IMG/VR virus record: IMGVR_UViG_3300046011_010468
Coordinates: 1-56,528 of that record
Origin: a virus
Taxonomy: Duplodnaviria > Caudoviricetes
Direction: 5' to 3' (one strand)
DNA: 56,528 bases
Under the pieces are notes generated by a model. That model was not told the DNA's origin. It searched no databases and was given only the letters and a program-made list of their open reading frames with translations. The translations under genes and the position numbers were made by a program. Shown here piece after piece: positions 1-31,262 of the stretch; position 1 is the stretch's first letter, and each line of letters begins with the position of its first letter.

Positions 1-712
1 CGTTGAAGTCGGCGAGGGCTTTGGCCGCTGGACCTTGTGACGGTGACGGAGGTGTCACGCGTGACGTGACGTTATTCGTGACGTTATTCGTCACGGGTGG
101 TGTCATGGCGCTGGCGACGGTGGGAAGTTGGACAGCGGGCGGGGCTGCGGGATTGCGGGCGGTTTGGCGTGGCACCTGAGCCTGGGCGGTTTTCAGGGCG
201 GCGAGGGTTTGGGCGGCGGGTTGGCCGTCGATAGTGCCTCCTGGGCGTGGTGCGGCCGGGCGTTTGAGCGTGGGGGGCAGCACGGACGGACTGGATGGAC
301 CGGGTTGACCGGGTTGACCGGATTGACCTGGTTGACTGGTGGGGGTGTCTGGCTGCCAGATGGAGGAGCCGGGGCTGTGGCCGGGGATGAGTTTGCCGCC
401 GGGTTTGACGGCGGCGGGAGCGGGCGCGGTAATGTTGCCGGCGGCGTCCATGCTGTGGCCGGTGGCGGCTCCGGCCTGGTTGTAGGCGGCGACTTTGGCG
501 TCGAAGGTGCCGTCGGTGCGGGCGGCGAGGATGTTATCCCGGCGGTTCGGAGGGGTGACTCCGGGCATGGCTGGAGAGGTCATGCCATTGTCCATGCGGG
601 CGCGGAAATCGCCCCGCGTTTCATCGCGGCGGCGGACTCCGCCGACTGGAGTGTTGGGGCGGGCGGCCATGCGGGCGGCGTCCTGGGCGACAAGGGTCGA
701 GGTGGTTCTCAT
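1..712 (-). CDS. Pro/Ala/Gln-rich protein, runs off the window start (possible internal virion/ejection protein)
   Basis: Not in the ORF track. ATG at 712 overlaps the stop of the 709-993 ORF (ATGA). I read the frame open to base 1 (MRTTSTLVAQDAARMAARP...AKALADFN). Confidence 0.7.
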   Translation of the reverse strand, partial: MRTTSTLVAQDAARMAARPNTPVGGVRRRDETRGDFRARMDNGMTSPAMPGVTPPNRRDNILAARTDGTFDAKVAAYNQAGAATGHSMDAAGNITAPAPAAVKPGGKLIPGHSPGSSIWQPDTPTSQPGQSGQPGQPGPSSPSVLPPTLKRPAAPRPGGTIDGQPAAQTLAALKTAQAQVPRQTARNPAAPPAVQLPTVASAMTPPVTNNVTNNVTSRVTPPSPSQGPAAKALADFN

Positions 713-993
713 GGCTTGGGTTTGAGCTTGTGGGTGGCGGTGAGCTTGTCCCGGCGGCAGGCGGTGACGATCTCGTGGAGGCCGTGGTAGGTGGCGATGT
801 CTTTGGGTGAGGGAGACTCGCCTTTGGCGTGGGCGGCGAGGATGGAGACGGCGGCGGTGTCGTAGGCTTTGAAGAGCTTGGGGGCCAGCCATTGGGTGAA
901 GCCGTGGCAGCGCTCCAGCGACTCGATGTGGGCGAGGGTGCGGGAGGCGTCGGACTGCTCGGCGGCGGTTTTGAGCTGTTGCGGCGTTGCCAT
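709..993 (-). CDS. Small helical protein downstream of portal
   Basis: 94 aa, starts immediately after the portal stop; typical position of a small conserved head-associated gene. Confidence 0.7.
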   Translation of the reverse strand: MATPQQLKTAAEQSDASRTLAHIESLERCHGFTQWLAPKLFKAYDTAAVSILAAHAKGESPSPKDIATYHGLHEIVTACRRDKLTATHKLKPKP

Positions 994-3186
994 TTAGATC
1001 GCGGGCTGGGGTGGTTCGGTGGGGGCTGGAGTGGCTCCGGGGGTGGCACCGGGGCCGGTGGGTGGGATGAGGGCCATGAGAGGCGCGATGACCTGGTCGG
1101 CGTTTTTGATGCCGTTGGCCTTGAGGATCTGGCGGAAGAGCGGGGCGAGGCGGGCCTGCACCTCGACGTTCGGCTGGGCGTAGTAGTTGGTGGCGGCGTT
1201 GGCGGCCTGGCTGTTCTGTTGGAGTTCCTGCTCCCCTCGGTATTTGGTGAGCTGGAGGTCCACGTCGAGGGTGAGGTTCTTCACCTCGTTGGGCTTGATG
1301 GTGGAGAGGGAGCCGAGGTTGCCATCGAAGAAGCGGAAGGTTTTGGTGCTCTGCAAATTGGCGGCGGCGAGGAGCATGAGCGACTTCAAAATGTCGCGGA
1401 TGCCGGCGCGGAGGTCGGATACCATTTTGTCGGTGAGTTCCTGGCCAGACTTCTCCATGTTGCGGACGCCGGTGGCGAGCTTGGTGGTGTCGAGGCCGAG
1501 GGCTTGGCCGTCGTTGACGTTGCTGACACCACTCATGTTCATGGCGATTTGCATGAGGAACTCGATCATCTCACGGAGCGGCTGGCCTTTGGTGTCGTAA
1601 ATGTCCACCTGCTGCACGGTTTCGGCGAGGGTTTTGCCGGGCTTGAGGTGGAGCGTTTCGCCGCCGTTGAGTTCGAGGTCGGGGTCGGCTTCGCCCTCGG
1701 TGGTGTTCTCTGGCTGCCAGGCGATGATTTTGCCGCTGCGGGACATGGAGAACTGCCAGCGGTTGAAGAGGAGGTCGATGGCGGTCTGGAGCGGCTCGAA
1801 CAGCTCGGCGAGGCCTTGGCCGTGGGCGCGGCCGGGGATTTTGTTGATGGTGGGCAGGCGGTAGGGGCGGCGTTTGTCGGGCGTGATGTTCTCGATGTAG
1901 TCGTAGAACAGCGGCACGGTGCCGTCACGTGTCATGATGAGCAGGATGTTGCCCTGGTTGCCGGTGTTGAGGGCGTCATACCAGAGGCAGAAGCGGGACC
2001 AGTTCACCTGCGGCTCACGTTTGTCGGTGCCGAGGCTGTCGAGCGGTTCATTGAGGTCGGCTCGGCCTTTGTTCGTGGCGGCTTGTGCCTCGGGGGTGGC
2101 GACGGTGAGGAGACGGTGGGTGAGGTTGCTGACATACTCCATGACCTGGTCCGGGGCCACGTCGTCGAGGGTGAGCAGGCGGTGGACGAGGGTGATGAGC
2201 GGCTCGTCGTAGTGGTGGACGGTTGTGTCTGCGAGTTCGAGGTTTTTGCAGTTGAGCGGGTAGAGGAAATCCGAGGGCAGCAGGATTTCGGCCTGGGGTC
2301 CTTCTTCGACGATGGTCCTGCGCCAGATGATCTGCTGCTGGTAGTTCTCTGTCCCTGGGTGCGGAGTGGTGCCGTCGCGCTTGAGCACGAGCTGGCCGGT
2401 GGGCTGCATGATTGGCTGACCGGTGGCGGGGTCTGCGGCGGGCTGCTGGGTGGCTGGATCAATGACGGGGGCCTGCTGCTCGATGAATTCGTCCTCGCCC
2501 TGGATGATGTAGTCGCCATCGGTGCCGACGACGGGCTGGCCGTCCGGTCCGAGGAGGATGGCTTTTTCGGACTGGTAGTAGGAGACGCGTTTTTGATGGA
2601 ACAACGACACGGGGCATTCGCCGCAGATGACGACACGCTCAATGATGCTGGCGAGGCTGCCTTTGGTGTCGTTTTCGGAGTCGAGGACGTGGCGGAGCCA
2701 TTTATCGAGGCGGTCGGCGAGGTCGGCGTCCTCAATTCCCACGTCGTAGGCGGCGAAGTAGGGGTCTGAGCCGAGGTAGTAGTTGATCATGCGGGCGATG
2801 ACCTGCTGGAGGATGCGCCGCGTGAGGGGGATGTGGAGATTGGAGTCCGCGAAGATGCCGCCGAGCACGGCGGAGCGATATTCGAAGCGCATCTGGTAGG
2901 ACATGAGGGCCATGTGGCGGGTGTCGAGGTGCCGCCGGCGGAAGGTGCCGTCTGCGTCGAAGGCGGAGGCGTGCCAGTTCGGTGAGTCGAAGTCGCGGAG
3001 GCCGAGTTCGTCGGCGAGTTCATCGGCGCGGTTCTTCGCGTGGATGAGGAGCGCGTCCTCCTGCGCCCGGTTCATGGACTTCGACAAGGGCGAGGGGATG
3101 AGCACGCGGGGCTTGTCTGGGTCTGGCTCCAGGAGCGGGGGTAGCTTGGAGGCGAGGGCCTGGGCCTGTGGCAGAGCGGAATCCAT
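994..3186 (-). CDS. Portal protein (P22/podovirus-type)
   Basis: About 730 aa with portal-like segments RRPY...IPGRAHGQGLAELFEPLQTAIDLLFN and MSGVSNVNDGQ...KLATGV, and a Q/P-rich tail. Start placed at MDSALP (3186) or MPRM (3195); the track's 3387 start translates a tandem repeat. Confidence 0.75.
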   Translation of the reverse strand: MDSALPQAQALASKLPPLLEPDPDKPRVLIPSPLSKSMNRAQEDALLIHAKNRADELADELGLRDFDSPNWHASAFDADGTFRRRHLDTRHMALMSYQMRFEYRSAVLGGIFADSNLHIPLTRRILQQVIARMINYYLGSDPYFAAYDVGIEDADLADRLDKWLRHVLDSENDTKGSLASIIERVVICGECPVSLFHQKRVSYYQSEKAILLGPDGQPVVGTDGDYIIQGEDEFIEQQAPVIDPATQQPAADPATGQPIMQPTGQLVLKRDGTTPHPGTENYQQQIIWRRTIVEEGPQAEILLPSDFLYPLNCKNLELADTTVHHYDEPLITLVHRLLTLDDVAPDQVMEYVSNLTHRLLTVATPEAQAATNKGRADLNEPLDSLGTDKREPQVNWSRFCLWYDALNTGNQGNILLIMTRDGTVPLFYDYIENITPDKRRPYRLPTINKIPGRAHGQGLAELFEPLQTAIDLLFNRWQFSMSRSGKIIAWQPENTTEGEADPDLELNGGETLHLKPGKTLAETVQQVDIYDTKGQPLREMIEFLMQIAMNMSGVSNVNDGQALGLDTTKLATGVRNMEKSGQELTDKMVSDLRAGIRDILKSLMLLAAANLQSTKTFRFFDGNLGSLSTIKPNEVKNLTLDVDLQLTKYRGEQELQQNSQAANAATNYYAQPNVEVQARLAPLFRQILKANGIKNADQVIAPLMALIPPTGPGATPGATPAPTEPPQPAI

Positions 3187-3217
3187 GCGGGGCATGGTGG
3201 GTGGCAGAATGGCGGAA

Positions 3218-3241
3218 TGGCAAGAGGGTTTTGTTGCGTCA
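3218..3241 (-). promoter_or_regulatory. Conserved box TGACGCAACAAAACCC plus -35-like TTGCCA upstream of portal
   Basis: 15/16 identical to boxes at 8231 and 31224; same 2-nt spacing to a TTG hexamer as at 8231. Confidence 0.65.
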
Positions 3242-3293
3242 GTGGGAGAAATGCGGTATGGTGTGGGACCATGAAACGCCCCCTTCGTGAGTT

Positions 3294-3361
3294 TGACCGG
3301 ATGCCTGACCGGATGCCTGACCGGATGCCTGACCGGATGCCTGACCGGATGCCTGACCGGA
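3294..3361. repeat. Perfect 12-bp tandem repeat (TGACCGGATGCC) x about 5.6
   Basis: Directly visible; no spacers; intergenic. Confidence 0.95.
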
Positions 3362-3373
3362 GGTGTGGGGATT

Positions 3374-3516
3374 TGTGGAACATCCAAAGATCACGCGACC
3401 TCTGGGGCGCGTGGCCAGTGACAACTTTCAAGCACCTCAAAATATGATCAAAGAAAATCAACTTCCTGAGTCCGACAGCCGAGCCCCAGATGGTCGCATT
3501 TATCCGCTTGTTCTGG
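3374..3516 (+). mobile_element. attC-like site 0
   Basis: AAC 3379-81; GAT-CAC-GCGACCTCTGGGGC (3389-3408) pairs with GCCCCAGA-t-GGTCGC-attt-ATC (3483-3504); GTT at 3510-12. The long loop contains ATG 3444. Confidence 0.6.
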
Positions 3517-3923
3517 AATCGAAGCCACCAAGCGTTGAAGAACCCTGTGAAGATGGGTTGGATGAGACGGCTTATTCTCGGTTGCGCCGAACGCTATGCA
3601 ACGTCCTTCTTGCTCTAGGAAATGGTGCTGCGTGTTCGCAAGATGCGTCTATCGAGTTCATGGAGATGATCCCCGCCGAAGTGGAAGCGGTGCGCAAAAA
3701 GTGGGAACGGAACCATAGCCGGGAGTTGGCGCATGCCCGCAAAGCGGAAGCCGCCCTCGCTGATGCCGCGCAACTGCTGGCGGAAATCATGCGCGACGAG
3801 GTGAACCACCAGGACGAGGCCGAGAAGTGGCTGAGAGCTTACGCTCCGCAGCATCTTTTTCCCGAGAACGACAAGGCTGAGGCACTGAGCCTTAGCGAAG
3901 CTGATCCTCTAGCCGCTGGTTAG
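3444..3923 (+). CDS. Hypothetical protein (cassette 1)
   Basis: 159 aa from MIKENQ. Starts inside attC-like site 0, reads through attC-like site 1 and stops at the TAG in G|TTAG. Confidence 0.7.
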   Translation: MIKENQLPESDSRAPDGRIYPLVLESKPPSVEEPCEDGLDETAYSRLRRTLCNVLLALGNGAACSQDASIEFMEMIPAEVEAVRKKWERNHSRELAHARKAEAALADAAQLLAEIMRDEVNHQDEAEKWLRAYAPQHLFPENDKAEALSLSEADPLAAG

Positions 3924-3925
3924 CT
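3862..3925 (+). mobile_element. attC-like site 1
   Basis: AAC 3867-69, 5-nt spacer, GGCTGAGG pairs with CCTC-t-AGCC (3906-14), 4-nt spacer, GTTAGCT 3919-25. Confidence 0.7.
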
Positions 3926-3995
3926 GGCTGGTTTTGAGCTTTAAAAACGCGACAGCGCAAAGGTGATGAAAATAAATCAAATCTCCATTTGCTAT

Positions 3996-4009
3996 CCCAA
4001 GCGCTTGGG
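3996..4009. promoter_or_regulatory. Palindromic operator CCCAAGCGCTTGGG in the cassette 2 promoter
   Basis: Perfect 14-bp palindrome between TTGCTA (3989-94) and an AT-rich -10-like stretch. Confidence 0.6.
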
Positions 4010-4052
4010 TTATTTATACAGGGTCAGACCAAACCGCAACTCACCCAAATAT

Positions 4053-4250
4053 ATGAAAACACCACGCTACAAAGTCGAATACAACGTCTCTACCGGAGAC
4101 ATCCACGAAGTCGCTCAATTCACGAACAAGGCTAAAGCCATCGCTGAGGCCAAGTGGAGGTTCAAAACCGAAAATAACGACGCTGGCACCGAATGGCGCG
4201 TCTATGACGAAGAGGCTGGCAAACTCATCTACCGCAGCGAAAAAGCATGA
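4053..4250 (+). CDS. Small hypothetical protein (cassette 2)
   Basis: 65 aa from MKTPRYKVEY; its stop overlaps the next ATG. Confidence 0.7.
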   Translation: MKTPRYKVEYNVSTGDIHEVAQFTNKAKAIAEAKWRFKTENNDAGTEWRVYDEEAGKLIYRSEKA

Positions 4251-4396
4251 ACAATGCCGCCCAACAACTCGGACGCCTCGGAGGCCGCAAAACCTCCGAG
4301 GCAAAAGCCGCCGCAGCAAAAGCAAACGGTGCAAAGGGTGGACGGCCTCGGAAGACACCGAATGCCGAGACGCCTTCTGAGCCAGCTAACGACTAA
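4247..4396 (+). CDS. Small basic GG/KGGRP-motif putative DNA-binding protein (cassette 2)
   Basis: Not in the ORF track. MNNAAQQLGRLGGRKTSEAKAAAAKANGAKGGRPRKTPNAETPSEPAND*, 49 aa; ATGA-coupled; the stop lies within attC-like site 2. Confidence 0.75.
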   Translation: MNNAAQQLGRLGGRKTSEAKAAAAKANGAKGGRPRKTPNAETPSEPAND

Positions 4397-4480
4397 GTGC
4401 TGGCACCACCATGAGCGCAAACGACTTACTTTTCACGCTGGACTCCGCCGCTCATGGTGGTTGTCCAGCCACGTCTTGGA
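4380..4480 (+). mobile_element. attC-like site 2
   Basis: AGCCAGCTAAC (4380-90) is the exact reverse complement of GTTAGCTGGCT (3919-29). GCTGGCACCACCATGAGCG (4399-4417) pairs with CGCTCATGGTGGTtgtCCAGC (4449-69). The right core is degenerate (G|GA). Confidence 0.7.
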
Positions 4481-4588
4481 CTGTGTTGAATTTGTATGCG
4501 GGCCTGGGCGGGAATCGGAAGCACTGGAACGCCAAGGTGACAGCCGTTGAACGCCAACCGGACATTGCGGCGGCCTATGCTGCGCGTT
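4411..4588 (+). pseudogene. N-terminal fragment of a C5-cytosine DNA methyltransferase, truncated by cassette 3
   Basis: VLNLYAGLGGNRKHW...VTAVE..PDIAAAY matches SAM-binding motifs I-II; similarity ends at the GTT at 4586. Confidence 0.7.
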
Positions 4589-4723
4589 CTGCTCCTTGCG
4601 GAGTCTTGCGGCCTTTCGAGCTTCTTGCAGCGCGGCTTGTTGCTCTGGCGTGATCTTGCGGCGGCTTGCTTTGCCGCCTTTGCTGCCGATCTCAGCGAGG
4701 TATTTCTTGAGGTCTTTTTTCAT
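4433..4723 (-). CDS. Small basic KGG-motif putative DNA-binding protein (cassette 3)
   Basis: KYLAEIGSKGGKASRR. The C-terminal half past 4586 is probably read-through across the cassette junction. Confidence 0.65.
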   Translation of the reverse strand: MKKDLKKYLAEIGSKGGKASRRKITPEQQAALQEARKAARLRKEQNAQHRPPQCPVGVQRLSPWRSSASDSRPGPHTNSTQSKTWLDNHHERRSPA

Positions 4724-4911
4724 GCCTTCGAGAGATCGACGCCAGTTTTCCAGTTAGCCACGAATATGCGCAGCAGGATAGCCATCGGGAAGGATGCGCC
4801 TCGCTTTTCGAGGTATGCCATGAGCGACGGAACGCAGTCAGAAGGCACGCGGACTACTGATTCGAGCACTCCATTGACGGAGATTTCCGCCACCGATTCA
4901 GAGGCTTGCAT
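4720..4911 (-). CDS. Small hypothetical protein (cassette 3)
   Basis: 63 aa, overlapping neighbours on the same strand. Confidence 0.5.
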   Translation of the reverse strand: MQASESVAEISVNGVLESVVRVPSDCVPSLMAYLEKRGASFPMAILLRIFVANWKTGVDLSKA

Positions 4912-5104
4912 TGTAGTCTGCCTCCTGGATGAGATTGTTGATGCGTGATGCCTCCGACCAGTCAGTTGACCGAGGGCAGGCGCGAAGGATGCGGGCGGCC
5001 TGAGTGTATAGGCGGCGGGCCTGCTCAGGGGTTGAGTCGCACCGATCAGCGGTGGACATAAGGGCTTTGGCGTCGGCGATGTATTCAGCGTTCATGTGTG
5101 TCAT
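4898..5104 (-). CDS. Small hypothetical protein (cassette 3)
   Basis: 68 aa, first gene after the palindromic promoter region. Confidence 0.6.
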   Translation of the reverse strand: MTHMNAEYIADAKALMSTADRCDSTPEQARRLYTQAARILRACPRSTDWSEASRINNLIQEADYNASL

Positions 5105-5108
5105 GTTA

Positions 5109-5125
5109 TCATAAGCCGCTTATGA
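5109..5125. promoter_or_regulatory. Palindromic operator TCATAAGC-c-GCTTATGA in the cassette 3 promoter
   Basis: 8-bp inverted repeat directly upstream of the 5104 start; shares an AAGC/GCTT core with the 3996 palindrome. Confidence 0.6.
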
Positions 5126-5156
5126 CGCAAGCGGTATTTTGAAGGTTCTCACCAAC

Positions 5157-5218
5157 GGAGCAGAACAATGAGATGCAGTCCAACGGGGCTAAGGCCCCGT
5201 GGCTGATCTCAAGCGACT
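5157..5218 (+). mobile_element. attC-like site 3
   Basis: GGAGCAGAAC (5157-66) is the exact reverse complement of GTTCTGCTCC (4586-95). Stem GAGAT-g-CAG-t-CC-a-ACGGGGC / GCCCCGT-GG-CTG-ATCTC has single-base bulges. The right end is G|ACT. Confidence 0.72.
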
Positions 5219-5459
5219 CACATCCTGGATGCCGGTGGTGGAGTTGCCGAGGATTCCTCGGCAGGTGGATGCGGCACTGCTGCGCGACTCACATCCTGGA
5301 TGCCGGGGTAATGTGCGTGACGTGCAGAGCCTGCTGGGGCATGCGAGATTGGAGACGACGATGATTTACGTGTATGGGGACGGAGAGCGGGTGAGGAGTC
5401 CGCTGGACACGCTGGCGGACTTGCCTGTGAATGTGGTGCCGTTTCAGCAGGCGGCTTGA
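5213..5459 (+). pseudogene. C-terminal relic of an integron-integrase-like tyrosine recombinase
   Basis: MRHCCATHILDAG in one frame, then NVRDVQSLLGHARLETTMIYV...VRSPLD after a frameshift near 5306; 23-bp duplication at 5213-35 / 5284-5306. Confidence 0.8.
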
Positions 5460-5501
5460 GAGGTGGACAACAGGGCGGAGTGATGCCTATGAGCAGGGAT
5501 T

Positions 5502-6272
5502 GTGGCGAAGAAAACGAGCCAGAAGCCCCCAGCCAACCCCCGCACCGAGCCTGTGCCTATGAGCACAGTGGCGGTGCCGTCGTCTCTCGGTAAGGGGGAA
5601 GTGAGGCTTTACGATTTGAGAAAAAGCAGCCTGCCGGAGGTGGCTGTGCCGCCTCCCGAGGCGGAACTGGCAGACTGGGCGTTTTGGCTGGTTCATTTCC
5701 CGTCCCGCCGTTGTGCGCCGGTGAAGGGAGATCGCGGCGAAGCGCTGGCGGTGATGAAAAAGCTGGGGCGCGGGCAGGATGTGGCGGGTGTTTTGCCTGT
5801 GAAACCCGCCAAAGAGTCGCGTGCGCGGGCGTGTGTGTGTGTGCAGGATGGGGAGCAGCAGGAGCCAAAGCCGCCGGCGAACCGGATGGCTTACACGCCG
5901 GTGCCGGAGGGTGCGGACTTTGACCAGGCGATGGCGCATGTGTTTCCGGTGGCGAGGCTGACGCAGCATTTTGAGCGCCTCCTCATGGCGGAGGAGGAGA
6001 TTTACGACAAGGAGGGGAACTGCACCGGCTCCAAGCCGGCGTTCACGACGCAATTCCAGACGCTCAAGGCGCTGACTGAATGGCACCAAGGGAGGCCACG
6101 GGAGAGGGAAAAGAAAAAGGAGGCGAGGCCGGTGCTGGGCATCCAGGAGCTGCGGCAGAAGCTGCTCATCTCCCCGGAATACCGGCAGGCCATGCTGGAG
6201 ATGATCCGCGACTGCGAGGCACAGGCGGCGGCGATGGCAGGCGGCGGCACCAAACCCCCGGTGGGAGGCTGA
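5502..6272 (+). CDS. Putative terminase small subunit
   Basis: 256 aa directly upstream of the large subunit; positional call only. Confidence 0.45.
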   Translation: MAKKTSQKPPANPRTEPVPMSTVAVPSSLGKGEVRLYDLRKSSLPEVAVPPPEAELADWAFWLVHFPSRRCAPVKGDRGEALAVMKKLGRGQDVAGVLPVKPAKESRARACVCVQDGEQQEPKPPANRMAYTPVPEGADFDQAMAHVFPVARLTQHFERLLMAEEEIYDKEGNCTGSKPAFTTQFQTLKALTEWHQGRPREREKKKEARPVLGIQELRQKLLISPEYRQAMLEMIRDCEAQAAAMAGGGTKPPVGG

Positions 6273-6276
6273 ACCC

Positions 6277-8229
6277 ATGGCCTACTACGCACACGACAAC
6301 CTGACCAGCACGGGCACGATGAAGGCCGTGCATGCGGTGGAGATGCAGGGCATGCGGGAGGAGACGCATGAGGACATTGACCAGCTCGTGGTGCGGTCCC
6401 GGCCTGGGGCGTGGTTTGAAACGGAGGGGCACATCATCGACAAGGCCGCTGTGGAGCGTGGAGCGCGGAGCGAGGACGGTGTGGCGCTGCATGCGAACTG
6501 GCTGCAAAAGCGGCTGTTTGAGATCGCCCAGTGGTGCCTGGACAACAATGAGCCGTGCAGGCTCCTGGTTTACAAACCTCGGCAGAAAGGGTGCAGCACG
6601 GGCACGATGGCGCTGGCTTACTGGTGGAGTCGGCGTCAGCGGTCGAACTGCTTGCTCATGGGTGGGCAGTATTCGCAGGTGGAAAACCTGTGGGGCATTT
6701 TCAGCCATTACGCGAGCAAGGACCGCTTCGAGTGGGGGAACTCCATCGAGAAGCTGAACACGGATTCAGCGACTTTTTCCAACGGCAGCGAGTGGCAGTG
6801 GGAGACGGCGCGAGATCCCGAGGCGGGGCGCTCTGGGACGTATCAGGTGGCGGTGCTTACGGAAGTGGCACGCTGGGCCGAGCAGGGCGTGGCAAATGCT
6901 TCCAAGGTGCTCAACGGGGTGCAGAACTGTGTGCCAAAGATCCCGGGAACGCTGGTGATCATGGAGACGACCGTCAAAGGCGGCTTCGGCGAGTTTTACC
7001 ACAAGTGGGTGGGCGACAAGGATAAGAATGTGCCGGGTGCGGTGAGCTTCGAGGACTTCAAGCGGGGTAAGCGCGGGAACGGATGGATCAAGGTTTTTGC
7101 TCCGTGGTTCGTGTTTGAGGACAGCCGGATTGCATGCCGCGATGAGCAGGAGGCTGCGGACATCATGGCAGGCATCGGCGCGATCTCCGAAGAAGAGAAG
7201 AGCGCGGAGCAGGAGATGATCCGGCGGTTCCGTCTGGGGCCGGAGCAGATCAAATACTGGCGCGATGTGCTGATCAATGAGTGCCAGCGCGATCCTGACA
7301 ACCGGGACCGGGAGTATCCGCCGACGCCGGAGGCTGGGTTTAAGAGCACGCTGCCGGGTCGATTTAACCGGATTGGGCTGCGGAAGCTGCGCGAGGGTGC
7401 GGAGCAGCAGCGGGACGCCATGCGGCGCATCATCCTGGAGAATCCGAGCGGCGACCGGAAAAACTACGTCCCACGCATCGTGCGCGAGGACAGCGAGGCG
7501 AGCTACTACATCTGGGAGCCGCCGAAGGTGGGGTATCGCTACCTACTGGCAGCCGACTTGGCGGCCGGTGAGGAAGTCACCGAGGGCGGGGACCGGGACT
7601 GCCAGACCGTGCTGGTGATCCGGCAGGGATTCATGAGTGCGCAGCGCGGCTGCTGGATGCCGCCCAAGGTGGTGGCGACAATCAAGCCGAACTGCCGCGT
7701 GGACCAACTCGTGCTGGCGGACATGGCGTGGCGTCTTGCCCGCTACTATGGCGGCTGCTTGATCGTGCCAGAGGTGAACTATGACAAAGGATTCATCCGG
7801 GCGCTGCGGGATCGCGGAGCGCACCTTTACGAGCGCGAGAGGGCGGCGACGGACAAGGAAGACCAGAAGCCCACCAAGAAGTTTGGATTCCTCACACGCG
7901 GCACCGATGGCGAAGGCATGCGGGGCTGGTGCATTGAGCGGCTGGCGGCGGCGATTCGCGAGTGGGACGTGCAGGGCAGCGGCATCGACTGCCCGGCGGA
8001 GTTCATTCTGGCTGAACTGGAGAACTTTATCCGCACGGAATCCGGGCGCGAGGAGGCGGCCCCTGGCAAGCATGACGACTGGGTGCTGGCGCTGTGCATC
8101 GCCCTGGCGACGATTGACGGCGCGACGCTTTACCGGGCGGAGGTCACGCGGAATGCGGAGCCGGCGTATCGGGAGAAGCAGCGGCAGCGGGAGCTGGCGG
8201 CAAAGCGGGGGCAGCGGGGGATGCGGTGA
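6277..8229 (+). CDS. terL: Terminase large subunit
   Basis: Walker A KPRQKGCST, Walker B VLTEVARW, coupling motif METT, RNase H-type nuclease residues AADLA, PEVN, GKHDDWVLA. Confidence 0.93.
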   Translation: MAYYAHDNLTSTGTMKAVHAVEMQGMREETHEDIDQLVVRSRPGAWFETEGHIIDKAAVERGARSEDGVALHANWLQKRLFEIAQWCLDNNEPCRLLVYKPRQKGCSTGTMALAYWWSRRQRSNCLLMGGQYSQVENLWGIFSHYASKDRFEWGNSIEKLNTDSATFSNGSEWQWETARDPEAGRSGTYQVAVLTEVARWAEQGVANASKVLNGVQNCVPKIPGTLVIMETTVKGGFGEFYHKWVGDKDKNVPGAVSFEDFKRGKRGNGWIKVFAPWFVFEDSRIACRDEQEAADIMAGIGAISEEEKSAEQEMIRRFRLGPEQIKYWRDVLINECQRDPDNRDREYPPTPEAGFKSTLPGRFNRIGLRKLREGAEQQRDAMRRIILENPSGDRKNYVPRIVREDSEASYYIWEPPKVGYRYLLAADLAAGEEVTEGGDRDCQTVLVIRQGFMSAQRGCWMPPKVVATIKPNCRVDQLVLADMAWRLARYYGGCLIVPEVNYDKGFIRALRDRGAHLYERERAATDKEDQKPTKKFGFLTRGTDGEGMRGWCIERLAAAIREWDVQGSGIDCPAEFILAELENFIRTESGREEAAPGKHDDWVLALCIALATIDGATLYRAEVTRNAEPAYREKQRQRELAAKRGQRGMR

Positions 8230-9509: not shown

Positions 9510-11012
9510 ATGGCTTACTCAGAATCCGGCCCGAACACGGGCGACTCACTTTCTGCTCAAATGGACCCGAAGGTCCTTTGGGCAGCGGGCATTGACCTCG
9601 CTGAAGCGGAAGAAGATCCACTCATGCAAATGGAAGGTGGCGCAGACGCCATCATCACCACCAAAACCGAAACCAGCGCTGGCGCTGGCACCACCATCAA
9701 GTTCCAAGTCACCTCCGATTACGGTGACGAGGGTAAACAGGGAGATGAAATTTTCGAGGACGAAGACGACTTCGAAGAGGAAATCTTCAACGATTTCGAA
9801 CTGACCGTGGACTGGGTGCGTCATGCGACGCGCTTCACGAAGCGCTCCGGCGAGATCATGGGCCTGCTGGGCGAACTCAAGCGCAAGATCCCGATCAAGC
9901 TCGGGCGCTGGCTGGGCAAATACAAGTGCCACAGCATGCTTATGACCATGCTGCACAAGACCAACGCGGCCAATCACTTCTACACGGCCAGCAGCCAGGA
10001 CAGCATCAGCGCCGGCGACGGCCTGACCTATGACGAGATCGTCAAGGGTGGTGCGATTCTGAAACCCCTCGGCGGCCAGCCGGCGGTGATCGGTCGTGAA
10101 GGTAAAAATTCCATCTGGGGTGCTGTCGTTCTCGCGACGGATAACGCCACCTATGGCCTCAAGCTCGATCCGATCTACCGCCAGAACCTCCAGACGGGTT
10201 TTGTGCAAGGTCGGGATAACCTGCTCTGGAAGGGTGGCGTCGCCAATGTGGATGGCCACCTCATCAAGGAATACGTTCCTCTTCGTGGCGACATTGAAGG
10301 CGCGGTGGGTTCTCCCCTGAATCCGCAGGCGCTGCTCGGAGTCGCCGTCGCTGGTGGCACCACCGCCCTGCAAATCAAAGGCGGCGGCAACGCCACCTCG
10401 GCAGCCAAGACCAAGAAGAAGTATTTCAAATACTTCCCCAAATACGCCTTCCGCTGGCGTCCAGGTCAGGGCACCCGCACGGCAGACACACTGTCTGCCA
10501 CGTCCGAAATCTGCTGGGACCTCACGGCCCTGGGCGAGGACGGTGCAACGGCGAACGTGTTCTACGTCCGCATCACCAATCCGCCGAACGCGGCCACGGA
10601 CCCTGGCAAGTGGTGCATCTACGAAATCACGACCAACGATGGCAACATCATGACGACCTCCGCTCGTCTGGGTGCCACCGACTCCGGTCAGCGCTACCAG
10701 ACGGTCGGCGCGGTGACGTGGGATGCCAACAAGCACACCGTGACGCATGGTGAAGGCTCGCTGGTGACGCTGTGCAACGCGGCTGGGGTTTCCCTCGGTG
10801 CCACGCTCTTCCTCTACCGCCAGGCGGCGTATCGGGGCTACGGCTCGGTGCGCAACCAGCGCCAGGAAGACAGCAAGAACGGCAACTTCGTCCAGGAGCG
10901 CTACATCGAGAGCGTCTTCGGCCAGTGCCTCCGCGAGGACACTCGCGGCAACAAGCCGGCCATCGCGGTGATCAAACACGCGATCTTCTATCCGGGCATC
11001 ATTGATGCTTAA
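9510..11012 (+). CDS. Major capsid protein (N4 gp56/DUF4043-like)
   Basis: GTTIKFQV...GKQGDEIFED.....EEI.NDFELTVDWVRHA resembles the N4-type MCP N-terminal signature; strongly biased codons; followed by a terminator. Confidence 0.8.
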   Translation: MAYSESGPNTGDSLSAQMDPKVLWAAGIDLAEAEEDPLMQMEGGADAIITTKTETSAGAGTTIKFQVTSDYGDEGKQGDEIFEDEDDFEEEIFNDFELTVDWVRHATRFTKRSGEIMGLLGELKRKIPIKLGRWLGKYKCHSMLMTMLHKTNAANHFYTASSQDSISAGDGLTYDEIVKGGAILKPLGGQPAVIGREGKNSIWGAVVLATDNATYGLKLDPIYRQNLQTGFVQGRDNLLWKGGVANVDGHLIKEYVPLRGDIEGAVGSPLNPQALLGVAVAGGTTALQIKGGGNATSAAKTKKKYFKYFPKYAFRWRPGQGTRTADTLSATSEICWDLTALGEDGATANVFYVRITNPPNAATDPGKWCIYEITTNDGNIMTTSARLGATDSGQRYQTVGAVTWDANKHTVTHGEGSLVTLCNAAGVSLGATLFLYRQAAYRGYGSVRNQRQEDSKNGNFVQERYIESVFGQCLREDTRGNKPAIAVIKHAIFYPGIIDA

Positions 11013-11098: not shown

Positions 11099-11809
11099 AT
11101 GAAGCAAGTCCTTGGCCTCATTCACTTTCCCCCGTCATTGTCGCGCAGTGTGGCGCGTGTGCGGGACTTCCGGCGCTGCCCGGAGCATGACAACGTGCTG
11201 GCTTATGAAGGCCGGGCTTTGTCCGTCGATGAATTCAATCGTGTGGCTCCGAAACTGATCGGGGAAGGTAAGGGCCTGTATGGCGTGCAGCCCATCGCCA
11301 AGCTCGTCGAGGTCGAGGTGGCGGACTCTCCGCCAGTCGAAGCGCCGGCGGCAAAACCTGTGCGTGTCGCCAAACCTGCGCCGGTCATTGACCTGCCTAA
11401 AGTCACCTTGGAGCCGTCTGGCGACGGCTTTGTGCTGGTGAATTACGAAGGCGACGAGGCCCGTTACATGGGCGCGTCGCAAGCCTGGGAGTCTGATGTC
11501 TCCCTGGTCATTCCTTTTGCCTCTGAGGACGAAGCCCGTGCGGCTTGTCCTGGGGTGCTCGTTGACAAAGCTCCGGCTATCGACGAGCCAAACGAATCTC
11601 TGGCTGAGGACTCGGGGGCGAGTCCAATGTTGGTTGAGGAAAGCGCCCCGGCTCCACAGGAGCCGGTGGCGTCACCCTCCCCGCCTGCGGTCGATCCGGC
11701 GAACATCCGCAACACAGTGATGAAGGCCCAGGCTGAAAAGCGGGCTGCCAAAGCCGCCCGGAATGCCCCGGCTCCCAAAAAAGTCACGCCGCCCCCTGCG
11801 GCCAAGTAA
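11099..11809 (+). CDS. Hypothetical protein, Pro/Ala/Lys-rich C-terminus
   Basis: 236 aa ORF in the head operon. Confidence 0.7.
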   Translation: MKQVLGLIHFPPSLSRSVARVRDFRRCPEHDNVLAYEGRALSVDEFNRVAPKLIGEGKGLYGVQPIAKLVEVEVADSPPVEAPAAKPVRVAKPAPVIDLPKVTLEPSGDGFVLVNYEGDEARYMGASQAWESDVSLVIPFASEDEARAACPGVLVDKAPAIDEPNESLAEDSGASPMLVEESAPAPQEPVASPSPPAVDPANIRNTVMKAQAEKRAAKAARNAPAPKKVTPPPAAK

Positions 11810-18167: not shown

Positions 18168-19162
18168 TGCCGGAACTACGAGCGCTTTTCAATGCGCCTC
18201 GCCGCTTGTGGGCTGGGGTAGGAACCAAAATCCGAGGCTACGCCGACAAGAAGACAATCTCTGGAGCGCAGACAACCGGAGCGCCAGCTATGTTCACGCT
18301 GAGGCGTTCAGACTCATCCGCGCCTATGCCGGACCAAGGCACGGAAGAAAACCCGGTGGAACTGCGCGCAGGGCAGGGCATGCGGCTCCATGGCTACGGC
18401 GGCATTCACACGCTGGAGCGGCTGCCAGTTCCTGTTGAAGACGAAATAGCCCTTGGTGGCCCTGCCCGGCTCGAATGGGATATTGAAACCTTTGAGGGTT
18501 ACGCGTCAGTATGCTCTCTGGGGGAGAGTTATGTGTCTCCCGGCTCATGGGTGCTGTCGTCGGAACTCGTGGTTGTCACCACGCTCGCTGGAGGTTGGAC
18601 AGATACCTTTAGTGCCAGCGGAGTGATCACCGGCTATGGTCCGGGCGAGTCACCAGACGCCTGCGCAGACCCCATCTTTGCCACCACCAAAGATGATGGT
18701 GTGGATTATGGAGATGGTGTATCTTCTTCATACTCTGAAGACACCTTGCTATTTACCGACTTGATTCCTGTGGCAATTGGAGCCGTAGCCCCATGGGCAT
18801 CAAGTAACTCTGCGCACGAGTGGACGCCTGAATTCTGGCGTGCAGTCAGCGAGGGGGTGCCACCTTGGCCGTTCAGCGTTCTCTTGGGATTTGTTGATGG
18901 GGGGGTGGACTCTTCTGGTGCCATCGCTCGCAACGTGCGTTTTCGCCTCCGCAACCGTGGCAGCGTCTCTTTGCGCGTGGACTGCGGCTTCTACGGTTCT
19001 GGCCTTTCAGGAGGGGCGGCTGACATCCCCGCCGTGCTCGACCTTGCCCCTGGGGCCAACAGCGCGTGGCAGGAGGTGCCATCCATTGACCCTGACCCCG
19101 ATAAATCCCGCTACGCGGCGATCAGCCGGGTGAGGATTGGGCGATGGAGGATGATACCTTAG
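18164..19162 (+). CDS. Hypothetical (tail-associated) protein
   Basis: Start MMPELR at 18164 overlaps the previous stop; converges on the integrase. Confidence 0.65.
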   Translation: MMPELRALFNAPRRLWAGVGTKIRGYADKKTISGAQTTGAPAMFTLRRSDSSAPMPDQGTEENPVELRAGQGMRLHGYGGIHTLERLPVPVEDEIALGGPARLEWDIETFEGYASVCSLGESYVSPGSWVLSSELVVVTTLAGGWTDTFSASGVITGYGPGESPDACADPIFATTKDDGVDYGDGVSSSYSEDTLLFTDLIPVAIGAVAPWASSNSAHEWTPEFWRAVSEGVPPWPFSVLLGFVDGGVDSSGAIARNVRFRLRNRGSVSLRVDCGFYGSGLSGGAADIPAVLDLAPGANSAWQEVPSIDPDPDKSRYAAISRVRIGRWRMIP

Positions 19163-20358
19163 GCGACGGTGTCCGATATGGCGCGTTTTAGCACGGCTGC
19201 CAGCTTGGAGGCGCTGCGGTGCGTGTAACGTTCGTTCTGCCGGGCGCTGGAGTGCCCGGTGATGTCTTTGCGCACCTCATAAGGCACGTCGGCTTCATCG
19301 AGCAGGGTGTTGGTCGTGTGGCGGAAGCTGTGGAAGGTTTTATTCGTGAATCCGCGCCCTTTGGAGTTGGGGTCTTTTTCCCGGCGCTCCCGTGCGACGC
19401 CAGCGTCGCCGAGAATGTCGCTGAATTGCTCGCTGAGGCCGCCGTTTCCTCCGGTGGGTGTTCCGGCCAGGCTGGGAGCCAAAGGCACGCCAGGGCGAAG
19501 CTGGAGCGTGAGCAGGTGGCTTTCCAACGGCTCCACGATGGGGACGTGGACGAGTTTCCCGGTTTTACCCTGCGTGTTGTGCCACACGCGGGGTTCTTTT
19601 TTGGTCGGTGGGGTGAAATCCTCCGGCTTGGCATCGGCGCAGTCCTGGAAGCGCTGGCCGGTGCAGATGCCGAGGAGGCACACAGTCAGCCAGTCGGTCT
19701 GCTGCGTTTTCCGCAGGTGCGCGAGGATCTTGGCGAGATCGTCGGCATTGAACGGCTCCCGGATGTCGGCCGTGCCATACTGGCGTAGCACCAGCTCAGC
19801 CGGATTGCGTGGGCAGAATCCCTCGGCGCGAGCGCGGTCAAAGATGGCTTGGAGCGTCTTCACGGCGTTGTTGGCAGTGGCCGGCTTCCGGCCTTCGTCG
19901 ATCATGTCGAAATACCATTCCTGGAGCGTGTCGCCGTCCATGAGGTTCAGCGGACGGGTTTTGTCGTCCCCCAGCCAGCGGGTGAGCAGCCGCACATGGC
20001 CGGCGTAGGATTCCAGTGAGCGGGGCGCGATGCGCGACTTTTGCAACGCCAGCCATTCCTGGGAGTATTCATCCCAATTCCGGGTTTCCAGCACGGGCCG
20101 GTGTCCGGCGATTTTGAGGATGTCGTTCACTACCTCCAACACGTCTTCCCGCGTGAGGCGCACGGTGCTGCGGTCTGGCGCGACTCGAAACGCCGCGTTC
20201 TGGAATTCATCGGCGACCTTCTGCGCCGTTTTCGCCTCGCTGCACTTCGTTGATTTCATGACCCTGCGCCAGCGGCCTTGGCTGGCGTCGTAAACCCAGA
20301 ATTGAGCCTGCCAGAACTGGCTGTTGGGGTGGTGGCGAATGGAGGCGGTGTAGCTCAT
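19159..20358 (-). CDS. int: Phage tyrosine integrase
   Basis: Catalytic R (TGQRFQD), K (QGKTG), HxxR (FHSFRH), H (TGHS), Y (RYTH); N-terminal arm-binding-like domain; adjacent attP. Confidence 0.95.
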   Translation of the reverse strand: MSYTASIRHHPNSQFWQAQFWVYDASQGRWRRVMKSTKCSEAKTAQKVADEFQNAAFRVAPDRSTVRLTREDVLEVVNDILKIAGHRPVLETRNWDEYSQEWLALQKSRIAPRSLESYAGHVRLLTRWLGDDKTRPLNLMDGDTLQEWYFDMIDEGRKPATANNAVKTLQAIFDRARAEGFCPRNPAELVLRQYGTADIREPFNADDLAKILAHLRKTQQTDWLTVCLLGICTGQRFQDCADAKPEDFTPPTKKEPRVWHNTQGKTGKLVHVPIVEPLESHLLTLQLRPGVPLAPSLAGTPTGGNGGLSEQFSDILGDAGVARERREKDPNSKGRGFTNKTFHSFRHTTNTLLDEADVPYEVRKDITGHSSARQNERYTHRSASKLAAVLKRAISDTVA

Positions 20359-22751: not shown

Positions 22752-23012
22752 TTAAAACGGGGCGAGTTCGAGGCGTAGGGAGGCGGTGAGGCGGGAGACG
22801 GCGGCGTGGCCGGCGTCGGTGATTTCGTAGAGGGGGGAGTGCTGCCGGTTGTCGGCATAGGCGGGATTGGCGCTTTTGGTGAGCCAACCTTTGGTCACCA
22901 TGGGTTCAAGGTGTTCGGCGCGAAGTCCGTTGATGTGGATGGCGGCGAGGGACTTGCGTTTTTCGAGGCGGGAGAAGCGGACGAGGGCTTCGATGGAGAG
23001 ATCGCAAATCAT
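22752..23012 (-). CDS. Small winged-helix-like protein
   Basis: Start MICDLS at 23012; MVTKGWL...YEITDAG pattern. Confidence 0.55.
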   Translation of the reverse strand: MICDLSIEALVRFSRLEKRKSLAAIHINGLRAEHLEPMVTKGWLTKSANPAYADNRQHSPLYEITDAGHAAVSRLTASLRLELAPF

Positions 23013-23326
23013 TTGAGGCGGAGGAGTTGGGGGGCTTTGGGTGTGGCGCGTATGACGAGGGGGAAACGCTTGCTGACGGGGTTGCGTGGGCCTTTGAGGT
23101 CGTGCCATTCATCCACGAGGCCTGCGCGAATCCAGCGGTTGACGCGCCGGCGGACGTGGCCGGAGTTGCGCTGGTTGCGCAGGGTTTCCAGTGGCAAACC
23201 TTTATCGCCAGCGGCGACGACGCGGAGGAGGTCGATCCATTCCGTGGTGCGCGGGGTGCCAGAGGTGCTGCCGAAGACTTCTTTGACAGAATCCCAGCAG
23301 TTGAGGATTTCTTGAGCGGCGGGCAT
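23009..23326 (-). CDS. Small winged-helix-like protein
   Basis: VRRRVNRWIRAGLV...RATPKA pattern. Confidence 0.55.
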   Translation of the reverse strand: MPAAQEILNCWDSVKEVFGSTSGTPRTTEWIDLLRVVAAGDKGLPLETLRNQRNSGHVRRRVNRWIRAGLVDEWHDLKGPRNPVSKRFPLVIRATPKAPQLLRLK

Positions 23327-23399
23327 GGGCGGTGGAAAAGAATTGGAGATGAGGAGTGGAGGAGACTGGGAGATGGCAGACGGGGCAGGAATTTACCGG

Positions 23400-30470: not shown

Positions 30471-30570
30471 GGGTTTGTGTGCAGTTCGTGCTACTCTGTG
30501 CATATTGCTCTTTCTGGGGTGGCGTGCAACTTCAATTTGCAAATAATGCAAGCGGGTGCATTCTGCACAT
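30471..30570. promoter_or_regulatory. Divergent immunity region with repeated TGCA operator half-sites
   Basis: AT-rich, with TGCA repeated seven times (e.g. GTGCAACTTCAATTTGCA, ATGCAAGCGGGTGCAT). Confidence 0.6.
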
Positions 30571-31182: not shown

Positions 31183-31223
31183 ACCACCGAAGGCACGGAA
31201 CACACGGAATCTTTGCTTATGGC

Positions 31224-31239
31224 TGTCGCAACAAAACCC
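31224..31239 (+). promoter_or_regulatory. Third copy of the TGTCGCAACAAAACCC box
   Basis: Identical to the 8231-46 copy; upstream of the HTH/RusA genes. Confidence 0.65.
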
Positions 31240-31262
31240 AACCTTAATGACGATCTTGAAGC

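What the first reader, a model, noticed from the sequence alone, without database searches (positions are those of the whole stretch)
3374..5459. Phage-borne integron-like cassette array beside an IntI-like relic
Seen: four bulged hairpins bracketed by AAC...G(TT) at about 3374-3516, 3862-3925, 4380-4480 and 5157-5218. Each intervening segment begins with a GTT sequence complementary to its own far end: GTTAGCTGGCT 3919-29 / AGCCAGCTAAC 4380-90 (11/11), GTTCTGCTCC 4586-95 / GGAGCAGAAC 5157-66 (10/10), and GTTCTGGAA 3510 / TTCCCGAGAAC 3859-69 (partial). Directly after the last hairpin is a tyrosine-recombinase C-terminus ending TTMIY...VRSPLD. Established: integrated integron cassettes start at G|TT and end with a complementary R'' (AAC) that opens a folded attC with extrahelical bases, and IntI proteins end in SPLD. 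Inference: this phage lineage keeps a cassette-acquisition locus between portal and terminase. The recombinase lies downstream and co-oriented, unlike the divergent intI of classical integrons. Integrons are regarded as rare in phages, so this may be an undescribed phage gene-shuffling system.
Basis: partly seen in the sequence, partly recalled or inferred. Interest (0 to 1): 0.92.

Follow-up and report, generated by a model that had tools for sequence, protein, structure and literature searches.

The report
Decayed integron inside a lake phage
A freshwater phage carries, between its portal and terminase genes, the worn-down remains of an integron (gene cassettes with their folded recombination sites plus the tail end of the integrase gene), a kind of element already reported but rare in phages.

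Summary
The observation largely holds. I built a covariance model from 35 attC-like elements that lie beside integron-integrase genes in other contigs, none from this window. The fourth hairpin (3374-3516) gets no support.

The recombinase tail (5269-5459) is the last ~62 codons of a true integron integrase. Seven of 8 full-length homologues pass NCBI's integron-integrase model.

The two GTT.../...AAC end complementarities (11/11 and 10/10) are real. One of them sits exactly where a truncated cytosine methyltransferase gene stops.

Related phages carry other attC-bounded inserts at the same portal-terminase junction, or none at all. More distant phage contigs have an intact intI directly upstream of terL.

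This copy is decayed. The intI gene is truncated, one attC lacks GTT, another lacks AAC and is inverted, and no attI is seen.

Relative to intI the attC orientation is classical, not "co-oriented"; it is the ORFs that run the unusual way.

Integrons and CALINs in phages were published in 2023 (PMC9892861), so this is a new member of a known kind, with some interest at the level of the phage lineage.

The parts
3187..5461 (.). Variable insert between the divergent portal gene (994-3387, -) and the terS-like/terL genes (5502-6272 and 6277-8229, +). About 56% G+C against 60-69% in the flanks.
   Evidence: Relatives L011/L012 join q3186 to q5462 with about 50 bp between. L002, L003, L017 and the L009 type hold other DNA there. 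Composition.
3294..3361 (.). Tandem repeat of a 12-nt unit (about 5.5 copies) at the left edge of the insert.
   Evidence: family D1. Contigs of run X2 break here.
3374..3516 (+). Not supported as an attC.
   Evidence: z -1.8/-1.45. It fits a loose descriptor (23 bp, 3 bulges, 4 internal loops) but fails the strict one. No R2 hit at E<=10.
3516..3870 (+). Cassette body shared at 97% with six relatives (L007-L010, L013, L016). Its right end is the AAC of the next attC.
   Evidence: In L009 this block is preceded by its own attC (R2 22 bits, E 0.007). Contigs of three other runs end at 3870-3872.
3863..3929 (+). attC-like site 2. It is short, has both AAC and GTT, an 8-bp stem and one bulged T.
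   Evidence: R2 14.7 bits, E 0.1, third best hit in the window.
3870..4389 (+). Cassette A. It holds site 2 at its left end and ORFs 4053-4250 and 4247-4396 of unknown function. Its right box GTTAGCTGGCT (3919-29) is complementary 11/11 to its far end AGCCAGCTAAC (4380-90).
   Evidence: No family found.
4384..4485 (+). attC-like site 3. It has AAC, a 5-nt spacer, a 22-bp stem with bulged T, T and C on the 3' arm, and a 19-31-nt loop. The GTT box is missing.
   Evidence: R2 30.7 bits, E 9.3e-6. Strict descriptor hit. z about -3.8.
4411..4585 (+). N-terminal 58-59 codons of a small DNA cytosine-5 methyltransferase, cut off at 4585|4586.
   Evidence: 55/59 identical to the start of the 240-aa protein P0014. 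18 of 22 hits carry PF00145. The rest of the gene is absent from the window.
4586..5215 (-). Cassette C, inverted. On the - strand it reads site 4, then ORFs 5104-4898, 4911-4720 and 4723-~4577 (overlapping starts and stops), ending in GGAGCAGAAC. That end is the 10/10 complement of the site's own GTT box.
   Evidence: A minor variant in run X2 replaces 4727-5106 by 429 other bases.
5156..5221 (-). attC-like site 4, with its bottom strand on the - strand. It has an 18-bp stem, bulged bases at positions 16, 20 and 24 counted from the GTTCTGC box, and a 4-nt loop. The AAC box is replaced (reads GTC).
   Evidence: R2 25.6 bits, E 1.7e-4. z -4.4/-4.9. EHB positions compared with PMC5027507 passages.
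5213..5306 (+). 23-nt direct repeat (5213-5235 and 5284-5306) of the intI codons for ATHILDAG, enclosing 48 nt with a 9-bp palindrome (5245-5263).
   Evidence: D3, I23.
5269..5459 (+). Relic of an integron integrase gene: residues ~279-341 of ~341, with a 1-nt frameshift near 5304-5307 in this record.
   Evidence: 90% identical to P0001 over 50 aa. Best NCBIfam hit is TIGR02249, matching the end of the profile. Contigs of runs X2 and X5 have one more G after 5304, which puts the relic in frame.

Best explanation
Window 3187-5461 is a decayed integron sitting in the accessory region between the divergent portal and terminase operons of a temperate freshwater phage. It is a short cassette array (a CALIN with three attC-like sites and at least three cassettes) next to the last ~62 codons of its integrase gene.

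HOW IT WAS BUILT (inferred). In an ancestor, or in a co-resident element, an intact IntI recombined folded bottom-strand attC hairpins at the AA|C of the R box. This added and swapped cassettes. That history explains why each cassette's GTT box is complementary to its own far end.

LATER REARRANGEMENTS (shown by sequence).
- Most of intI and any attI were removed.
- A methyltransferase cassette was cut at 4585|4586.
- One cassette was placed there upside down.

CURRENT STATE (inferred). The array is inert in cis. At most, site 2 could still be moved by an integrase supplied in trans.
For: (1) An independent attC model puts its three best hits of the whole window within 1.4 kb upstream of the relic. 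The model's stem covaries. In 47 loci with intact intI it hits 178 times, 176 of them on the intI strand.

(2) The relic belongs to the IntI family. Its closest full-length proteins (76-90% identical to it) score 259-276 bits on TIGR02249 against a cut-off of 265, and 7 of 8 pass.

(3) The end complementarities of 11/11 and 10/10 exceed shuffles. The left end of cassette C coincides to the base with the end of homology to a full-length methyltransferase.

(4) Relatives carry attC hits inside the same variable junction: L009/L013/L016, L017, L002 and L003. All 34 hits of that call were on the + strand. L011/L012 have an empty site.

(5) L104 reads attC, intact intI, an ORF, then terL. L101 reads intact intI then a terL-like gene.

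(6) The collinear 63-kb relative G001 has five attC hits upstream of an internally deleted intI at another locus. L102 has an intact intI at that locus.

(7) Bulged bases sit at positions 16/20/24 on the L'' arm of site 4, as described for attC bottom strands (passages of PMC5027507).
Against: - The first, sequence-specific model R1 found nothing in the window at E<=1.
- Rfam gave no hit at E<=10.
- E-values of R2 are rough because calibration was shortened, and site 2 is marginal (E 0.1).
- Site 3 lacks GTT and site 4 lacks AAC, so neither is a complete attC.
- No attI was identified.
- The left edges of the variable region differ among relatives (q3186, 3253, 3269, 3280, 3299) and are not at a single G|TT.
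- The shared block 3516-3870 excludes both flanking sites in this window. A simple cassette model does not predict that.
- Of the 7 cassette ORFs used as queries, only ORF186's shared block, plus a 21-aa motif of one other ORF, matched anything in the 236 other loci held.
- IntegronFinder and HattCI were not available.
Confidence: 0.8

Rival explanations
1. Passive capture. The segment is a piece of a host chromosomal integron picked up once by illegitimate recombination or imprecise excision. No integrase-driven cassette exchange ever took place in phage genomes of this lineage.
For: - Qi et al. 2023 describe such captured fragments of sedentary integrons in Vibrio phages (PMC9892861, section 3.1).
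- The segment has lower G+C than its flanks.
- The array is decayed.
- A short GGTGG-like direct repeat flanks the whole insert when compared with the empty site of L012.
Against: - At least four different cassette contents occupy the same junction in close relatives, all with attC hits in one orientation.
- An intact intI lies next to terL in L104 and L101.
- A second integron locus exists in the collinear relative G001.
- 50 IMG/VR stretches encode IntI relatives. One lies in a record with direct terminal repeats that is rated 100% complete.
Confidence: 0.12
2. Chance. The hairpins are ordinary terminators or coding-sequence palindromes, and the relic is a fragment of a generic XerC/D-like or phage integrase.
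For: - Two of the four hairpins fold no better than shuffles.
- On the 86-aa relic alone, the XerC model scores nearly as well as the integron model (22.1 against 23.1 bits).
- Rfam is silent.
Against:
- The relic's full-length homologues pass the integron-integrase cut-off and score only 106-129 bits on the XerC/XerD models, whose cut-offs are 330-335.
- The inverted repeats starting with GTT exceed shuffles.
Confidence: 0.04
3. attP-type duplicate. The phage integrates into the 3' end of a host intI gene and carries a copy of that gene end so as to restore it. The relic would then mark the attachment site rather than a dead integron.
For: - The relic is well conserved (90% to P0001).
- It is in frame in other samples.
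- Similar short C-terminal forms exist elsewhere: P0005, and P0006 on 26 contigs.
Against: - The phage's own integrase is 14 kb away at 19159-20358, not beside the relic.
- attC sites lie directly upstream of the relic.
- Relatives have the whole intI at this place.
- L003, L017 and the L009 type lack the relic but keep attC sites.
Confidence: 0.03

Closest known systems
CALINs and integron fragments in bacteriophage genomes (Qi, Rajabal, Ghaly, Tetu and Gillings 2023, Front Microbiol, PMC9892861; sections 3, 3.1 and 3.4 read)
   Same: - attC clusters without a working integrase, inside phage genomes.
- Truncated intI next to arrays.
- attC sites in divergent directions and several ORFs between sites.
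- DNA methyltransferase cassettes.
   Different: - That survey covered 10,705 NCBI phage genomes (3 integrons, 1 In0, 17 CALINs) and no uncultivated lake phages.
- Here the array sits at one fixed junction (portal | terminase) that differs in cassette content between close relatives.
- More distant phage contigs have an intact intI at that place.
- No attC of this lineage has been tested experimentally.
Classical integron (intI, attI, attC cassettes), e.g. class 1 and Vibrio chromosomal integrons
   Same: - An IntI-family integrase gene (in relatives).
- attC architecture: the model consensus has boxes GCCTAAC...GTTAGGC, an unpaired central spacer, bulged bases on the L'' arm and a variable loop.
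- The bottom strand lies on the intI sense strand, upstream of intI.
- Each cassette start is complementary to its own R'' box.
   Different: - In the window intI is reduced to ~62 codons, attI was not found, and sites 3 and 4 each lack one R box.
- One cassette is inverted.
- The recognisable genes (the methyltransferase here and two in L190) lie on the attC bottom strand with the attC at their 5' side. That is opposite to the usual promoterless-cassette layout, which I state from established knowledge, not from a call.
Phage 'moron' / accessory-gene hot spots between structural operons
   Same: A small region of lower G+C and changing gene content between conserved packaging genes.
   Different: Here the modules carry attC-type recombination sites and lie beside an integrase relic. 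That points to site-specific exchange rather than only illegitimate exchange.

Membership tests
attC recombination site | R' box with AAC and R'' box with GTT that can pair | tested here: inconclusive
   Site 2 (3863-3929) has both. Site 3 has AAC but GTT is aligned to a deletion. Site 4 has GTT but reads GTC at the AAC position (alignments).
attC recombination site | Imperfect hairpin with an unpaired central spacer, extrahelical bases on one arm (L'' side of the bottom strand) and a variable terminal loop | tested here: met
   R2 alignments and folds. Site 4 has bulges at positions 16, 20 and 24, and site 3 at about 16, 21 and 24, counted from the R'' end. Compared with passages of PMC5027507.
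attC recombination site | Significant score with an attC covariance model | tested here: met
   With a model built here: E 9.3e-6, 1.7e-4 and 0.1. IntegronFinder's own model was not available, and Rfam gave nothing.
attC recombination site | Recombined by an integron integrase | not testable with these tools
   Needs an attC x attI assay.
Integron integrase (IntI) | Full-length tyrosine recombinase that passes the integron-integrase model (which covers the IntI-specific insertion) | tested here: not met
   The window keeps residues ~279-341 only and scores 23.1 bits on TIGR02249 (cut-off 265). Its full-length homologues pass in 7 of 8 cases.
Complete integron | intI plus attI plus at least one attC cassette | tested here: not met
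   intI is truncated. attI was not identified, and no model for it was at hand.
CALIN (cluster of attC sites lacking an integrase) | Two or more attC sites close together without a functional intI nearby | tested here: met
   Two significant hits and one marginal hit lie within 1.4 kb. The only intI sequence in the record is the relic.
Integron gene cassette | The start of the integrated cassette is complementary to the R'' box of its own attC | tested here: met
   11/11 for cassette A and 10/10 for cassette C. Reached in 1 of 200 shuffles.

The most novel reading that the evidence does not exclude
A lineage of temperate freshwater phages, probably of Verrucomicrobiota, maintains working integrons as its own accessory-gene exchange platform, placed next to the terminase genes or at a second locus. 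The cassettes are built the 'wrong way round': the gene lies on the attC bottom strand with the attC at its 5' end, co-directional with intI and the packaging operon. They would then be expressed with phage transcripts rather than from a Pc promoter. On this reading the window is one decayed copy of that system, and its cassettes can still be mobilised in trans by relatives' IntI.
Probability: 0.3. Interest if true: 0.8.

Novelty: new member of a known kind. Interest (0 to 1): 0.62.

Why it matters
Integrons are known mainly from bacterial chromosomes, plasmids and transposons, and phage examples are few (21 of 10,705 genomes in PMC9892861).

Here a whole group of uncultivated lake phages shows attC-bounded cassettes at one fixed junction. 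Cassette content differs between near-identical genomes, and intact integrases occur in relatives.

If the system is active in some members, it would be a site-specific route by which phages swap small accessory genes, methyltransferases among them. It would also move integron cassettes between hosts.

This particular copy is a decayed example, so its value is as a pointer to the lineage rather than as a working system.

Tried and rejected
- Rfam scan of 2900-6300 at E<=10: no hit.
- ARAGORN: no tRNA in the window, so no tRNA-type attachment site.
- Model R1, built from two L190 elements: no window hit at E<=1. It was too sequence-specific, and was replaced by R2.
- MAFFT alignment of six L190 elements (A3) misaligned the AAC boxes and was not used for a model.
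- Pfam, PHROGs, NCBIfam and PADLOC on the small cassette ORFs gave nothing above threshold.
- PDB sequence search with the methyltransferase fragment gave nothing useful.
- tblastn of 7 cassette ORFs against 236 held loci matched only the ORF186 block and one 21-aa motif.
- terL of the window was not found in the records of L190, L211, L206, L200 and L196. Those integron-bearing virus records therefore belong to other phage groups.
- The ORF between intI and terL in L104 is not similar to the window's 5502-6272.
- Longest-ORF strand test between neighbouring attC hits: 52 plus, 29 minus, 27 similar out of 108 segments. It is suggestive only, because high G+C gives long spurious frames.
- Laying contigs of four lake-water runs showed no joint that skips a whole cassette. 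Contigs drop rare forms, so this says nothing about excision.
Full report
WHAT THE WINDOW IS

The window is a whole IMG/VR virus record of 56,528 bases, rated 92% complete.
- It encodes an SU10-type portal protein (994-3387, minus strand) and a large terminase (6277-8229, plus strand).
- It has its own conventional phage integrase at 19159-20358 and an HTH regulator at 30556-31182.
- It is collinear with, and circularly permuted against, a 62,954-base relative rated 100% complete (G001).

It is therefore a temperate phage genome, not a bacterial region. Near-identical DNA occurs in lake-water metagenomes.

THE OBSERVATION

Two of the four hairpins fold far better than shuffled sequence: 4380-4480 and 5157-5218, with z about -4. 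The other two do not. Rfam has nothing here.

Both long end complementarities exist (11/11 and 10/10). In 200 dinucleotide shuffles of 3200-5600, two GTT-initiated 10-mer inverted repeats were reached once.

THE RELIC

The 86-codon frame 5199-5459 hits the very end of NCBI's integron-integrase model best, but weakly (TIGR02249, 23.1 bits; XerC 22.1).

A search with its last 50 residues found twelve proteins, eight of them 340-358 aa long with the Phage_int_SAM_4 plus Phage_integrase architecture. Seven of these eight pass the curated TIGR02249 cut-off, scoring 268.7-275.5 bits against 265; the eighth scores 259.3. On the XerC and XerD models they score only 106-129 bits, against cut-offs of 330-335.

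The window holds residues ~279-341 only (5269-5456). There is a one-base frameshift near 5304-5307 and a 23-nt duplication of the ATHILDAG codons. In two other lake samples the contigs carry one more G after 5304, so the relic is in frame there.

AN INDEPENDENT attC TEST

An IMG/VR contig with a full-length homologue (L190, intI at 10001-11011) has repeated ~95-nt elements upstream of intI. Each reads AAC, a 5-nt spacer, a stem, a loop, a stem with single bulged bases on the 3' arm, a 4-5-nt spacer, then GTT.

I seeded a covariance model with two of these elements (R1). R1 found 35 elements in 52 other intI-bearing or related loci, all on the intI strand. I rebuilt the model from those 35 (R2). 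No sequence of the window entered either model.

The R2 structure is well supported:
- 98.2% of cells are paired.
- All 21 stem pairs show compensatory changes.
- AAC/GTT is invariant in 34-35 of 35.
- Caveat: the alignment was fitted to the model.

The model consensus boxes are GCCTAAC and GTTAGGC.

R2 was run over the whole window, both strands, filters off.
- 4384-4485(+), 30.7 bits, E 9.3e-6
- 5156-5221(-), 25.6 bits, E 1.7e-4
- 3863-3929(+), 14.7 bits, E 0.1

Hairpin 1 was not hit. A strict descriptor scan of my own gave 2 hits in the whole window, one of them 4388-4487. R1 alone had found nothing in the window. E-values from these models are rough.

ANATOMY

According to passages of Nivina et al. 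2016 (PMC5027507):
- The attC bottom strand carries RYYYAAC (R') at its 5' end and GTTRRRY (R'') at its 3' end.
- The extrahelical bases lie near L''.
- They are numbered 16, 20 and 24 in VCR2 and attCoxa2.

By this rule the + strand is the bottom strand of sites 2 and 3, and the - strand that of site 4. Site 4 has its bulged bases exactly at positions 16, 20 and 24 from the R'' end (alignment).

Sites 2 and 3 thus lie upstream of the relic, on its sense strand. This is the classical intI/attC geometry, the same as in 176 of 178 R2 hits in 47 loci with intact intI.

The sites are incomplete. Site 3 lacks the GTT box, and site 4 lacks the AAC box and is inverted.

Cassette A (3870-4389) starts with site 2. 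Its GTT box is complementary 11/11 to the cassette's far end, at the AAC of site 3.

After site 3 comes the N-terminus of a cytosine-5 methyltransferase. It is 55/59 identical to the 240-aa protein P0014, and 18 of 22 hits carry PF00145. The homology stops at 4585. The next base opens GTTCTGCTCC, the 10/10 partner of site 4's box.

So the inverted cassette C (4586-5215, three small overlapping minus-strand ORFs plus site 4) begins exactly where the methyltransferase is cut. Its other end abuts the duplicated intI fragment. The rest of the methyltransferase gene is not in the window.

No cassette ORF could be assigned a function.

RELATIVES

Nineteen IMG/VR loci encode a terL relative.

The right edge of the variable region is the same in all informative ones, at q5457-5462, which is the stop codon of the relic. 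The left edge varies between q3186 and q3299.

What each relative holds at the junction:
- L011 and L012 have an empty site of about 50 bp.
- L002 (95% identical flanks) holds about 0.9 kb of other DNA, with one attC hit and two copies of the last 68 nt of intI.
- L003 (which is G001) and L017 hold other genes, with one and two attC hits.
- The L009 type (six loci) holds a PAPS-reductase-like gene, two attC hits and the 3516-3870 block at 97% identity.

All 34 R2 hits were on the + strand. The more distant relatives (L005, L006, L014, L015, L020) gave no hit at E<=0.05.

The block's right end is the AAC of site 2. In L009 the block's own attC has a GTTCTCGG box that is complementary 8/8 to the block's end (read). 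In the window that GTT reads ATT, but in three other lake samples it is GTT (3574 A>G). Contigs of three runs end at 3870-3872, as expected where variants branch.

However, in the window the block is shared without either flanking site. A simple cassette model does not predict that.

INTACT INTEGRASES IN PHAGE CONTEXTS
- L104 (a metagenome contig) reads attC (111-236), intI (727-1728, full length), a 224-aa ORF, then terL (2289-4214; 30% identical to the window's terL; phrog_2).
- L101 reads intI and then a terL-like gene.
- L102 has a full intI next to DNA like window 31.7-37.4 kb.
- G001 has, at the equivalent place, five attC hits and an internally deleted intI of 108 codons.

Fifty IMG/VR stretches encode relatives of this integrase. 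Many have long arrays, for example 15 hits in L190 and 6 in L196. The L196 record has direct terminal repeats and is rated complete. Those records did not match the window's terL.

INTERPRETATION

The finding is a real but decayed integron in a phage genome. Shown by the sequence and searches:
- the sites;
- the family of the relic;
- the breakpoints;
- the variability of the locus;
- the intact versions in other phage contigs.

Inferred:
- that IntI activity built the array;
- that this copy is now inert.

The main rival is passive capture of a host integron fragment. Recurrence at one junction with different cassettes and intact intI next to terL weaken it, but do not exclude it.

COMPARISON WITH WHAT IS KNOWN

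Qi et al. 2023 (PMC9892861; outline and sections 3, 3.1 and 3.4 read) screened 10,705 phage genomes. They found 3 complete integrons, one In0 and 17 CALINs, including methyltransferase cassettes and divergent attC sites. They also showed that five of six tested phage attC sites recombine with IntI1. The kind is therefore known.

Three full-text searches gave no other paper on integrons in phages beyond that one and passing mentions. None concerned uncultivated lake phages or a terminase-adjacent integron. I did not see that paper's supplements.

Cury et al. 2016 (PMC4889954, passages) report integrons in Verrucomicrobia and describe the 'inverted integrase' group. These loci do not belong to it.

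One feature may be unusual. The recognisable genes (the methyltransferase here and two in L190) lie on the attC bottom strand, with the attC at their 5' side. A crude strand test gave 52 against 29 of 108 segments in that sense. This needs proper gene calling.

VERDICT

It needs correction on orientation, on activity and on novelty. This is a new member of a known kind. Interest is moderate to high, because the lineage and not this copy may hold working phage integrons.

Noticed in passing
window 34650-56528 (-) and 2-892 (-): A giant open frame of at least 7,292 codons runs off the right end of the record. The frame 892-2 runs off the left end on the same strand. If the genome is circular, as the permutation against G001 suggests, they may be one gene of about 7,600 codons lying downstream of the portal gene.
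   Followed up: no
G001 22962-24235 and 25303-25563 (L186 8963-10236 and about 11304-11564); L102 38-1039: There is a second integron locus in relatives. G001 has five attC hits upstream of an internally deleted intI (108 codons: residues 1-43 joined to 294-339). L102 has a full intI at the equivalent place. The window has only about 400 bp there (31082-31484).
   Followed up: partly
window 5304 and 3574: In contigs of other lake-water runs an extra G after 5304 puts the intI relic in frame, giving a ~95-codon ORF from 5173. There, 3574 is G, which restores a GTT box. The frameshift may be a strain variant or a homopolymer error of this assembly.
   Followed up: partly
window 4727-5106: A minor variant in run X2 (depth 31 against about 130-155) replaces the two small minus-strand ORFs by 429 other bases. 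The breakpoints lie just outside the two genes, so a gene-pair swap has occurred inside a cassette.
   Followed up: no
window 3294-3361: Five and a half copies of a 12-nt unit lie between the portal start region and the array. Contigs of run X2 break there. If the portal ORF is read from TTG 3387, the repeat encodes PVRH repeats, so the true start is probably further downstream.
   Followed up: no
L012 7170-7195 compared with window 3235-3250 and 5457-5475, and L017 and L003 edges: The empty site reads GTTGCGAC-GGTGG-ACAAC. Occupied genomes have a (C)GGTGG-like word at both edges of the insert. In L003 and L017 a GTTCGG box lies directly before the right-hand copy. This could be a target duplication or the crossover site of the whole array.
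   Followed up: partly
L190 3988-9405, and the 47 loci: The recognisable cassette genes (two N6/N4 methyltransferases in L190 and the C5 methyltransferase in the window) lie on the attC bottom strand, co-directional with intI. The longest-ORF test between neighbouring sites gave 52 plus, 29 minus and 27 similar out of 108.
   Followed up: partly
L009 2574-3251 and L190 9718-9984: By eye, the N-terminal ~95 residues of the L009 junction ORF resemble the small ORF that sits directly upstream of intI in L190 (MTFA.QLQAA... and a shared KGQN.DS stretch). This was not tested with an alignment tool. It may be a regulator that travels with the integrase.
   Followed up: no
proteins P0005, P0006, P0012, P0013, P0015: Truncated or internally deleted versions of both the integrase (89, 102 and 113 aa; P0006 is on 26 contigs) and the methyltransferase (111 and 114 aa) recur in public assemblies. 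Decay of these cassettes and of intI is therefore common in this gene pool.
   Followed up: no
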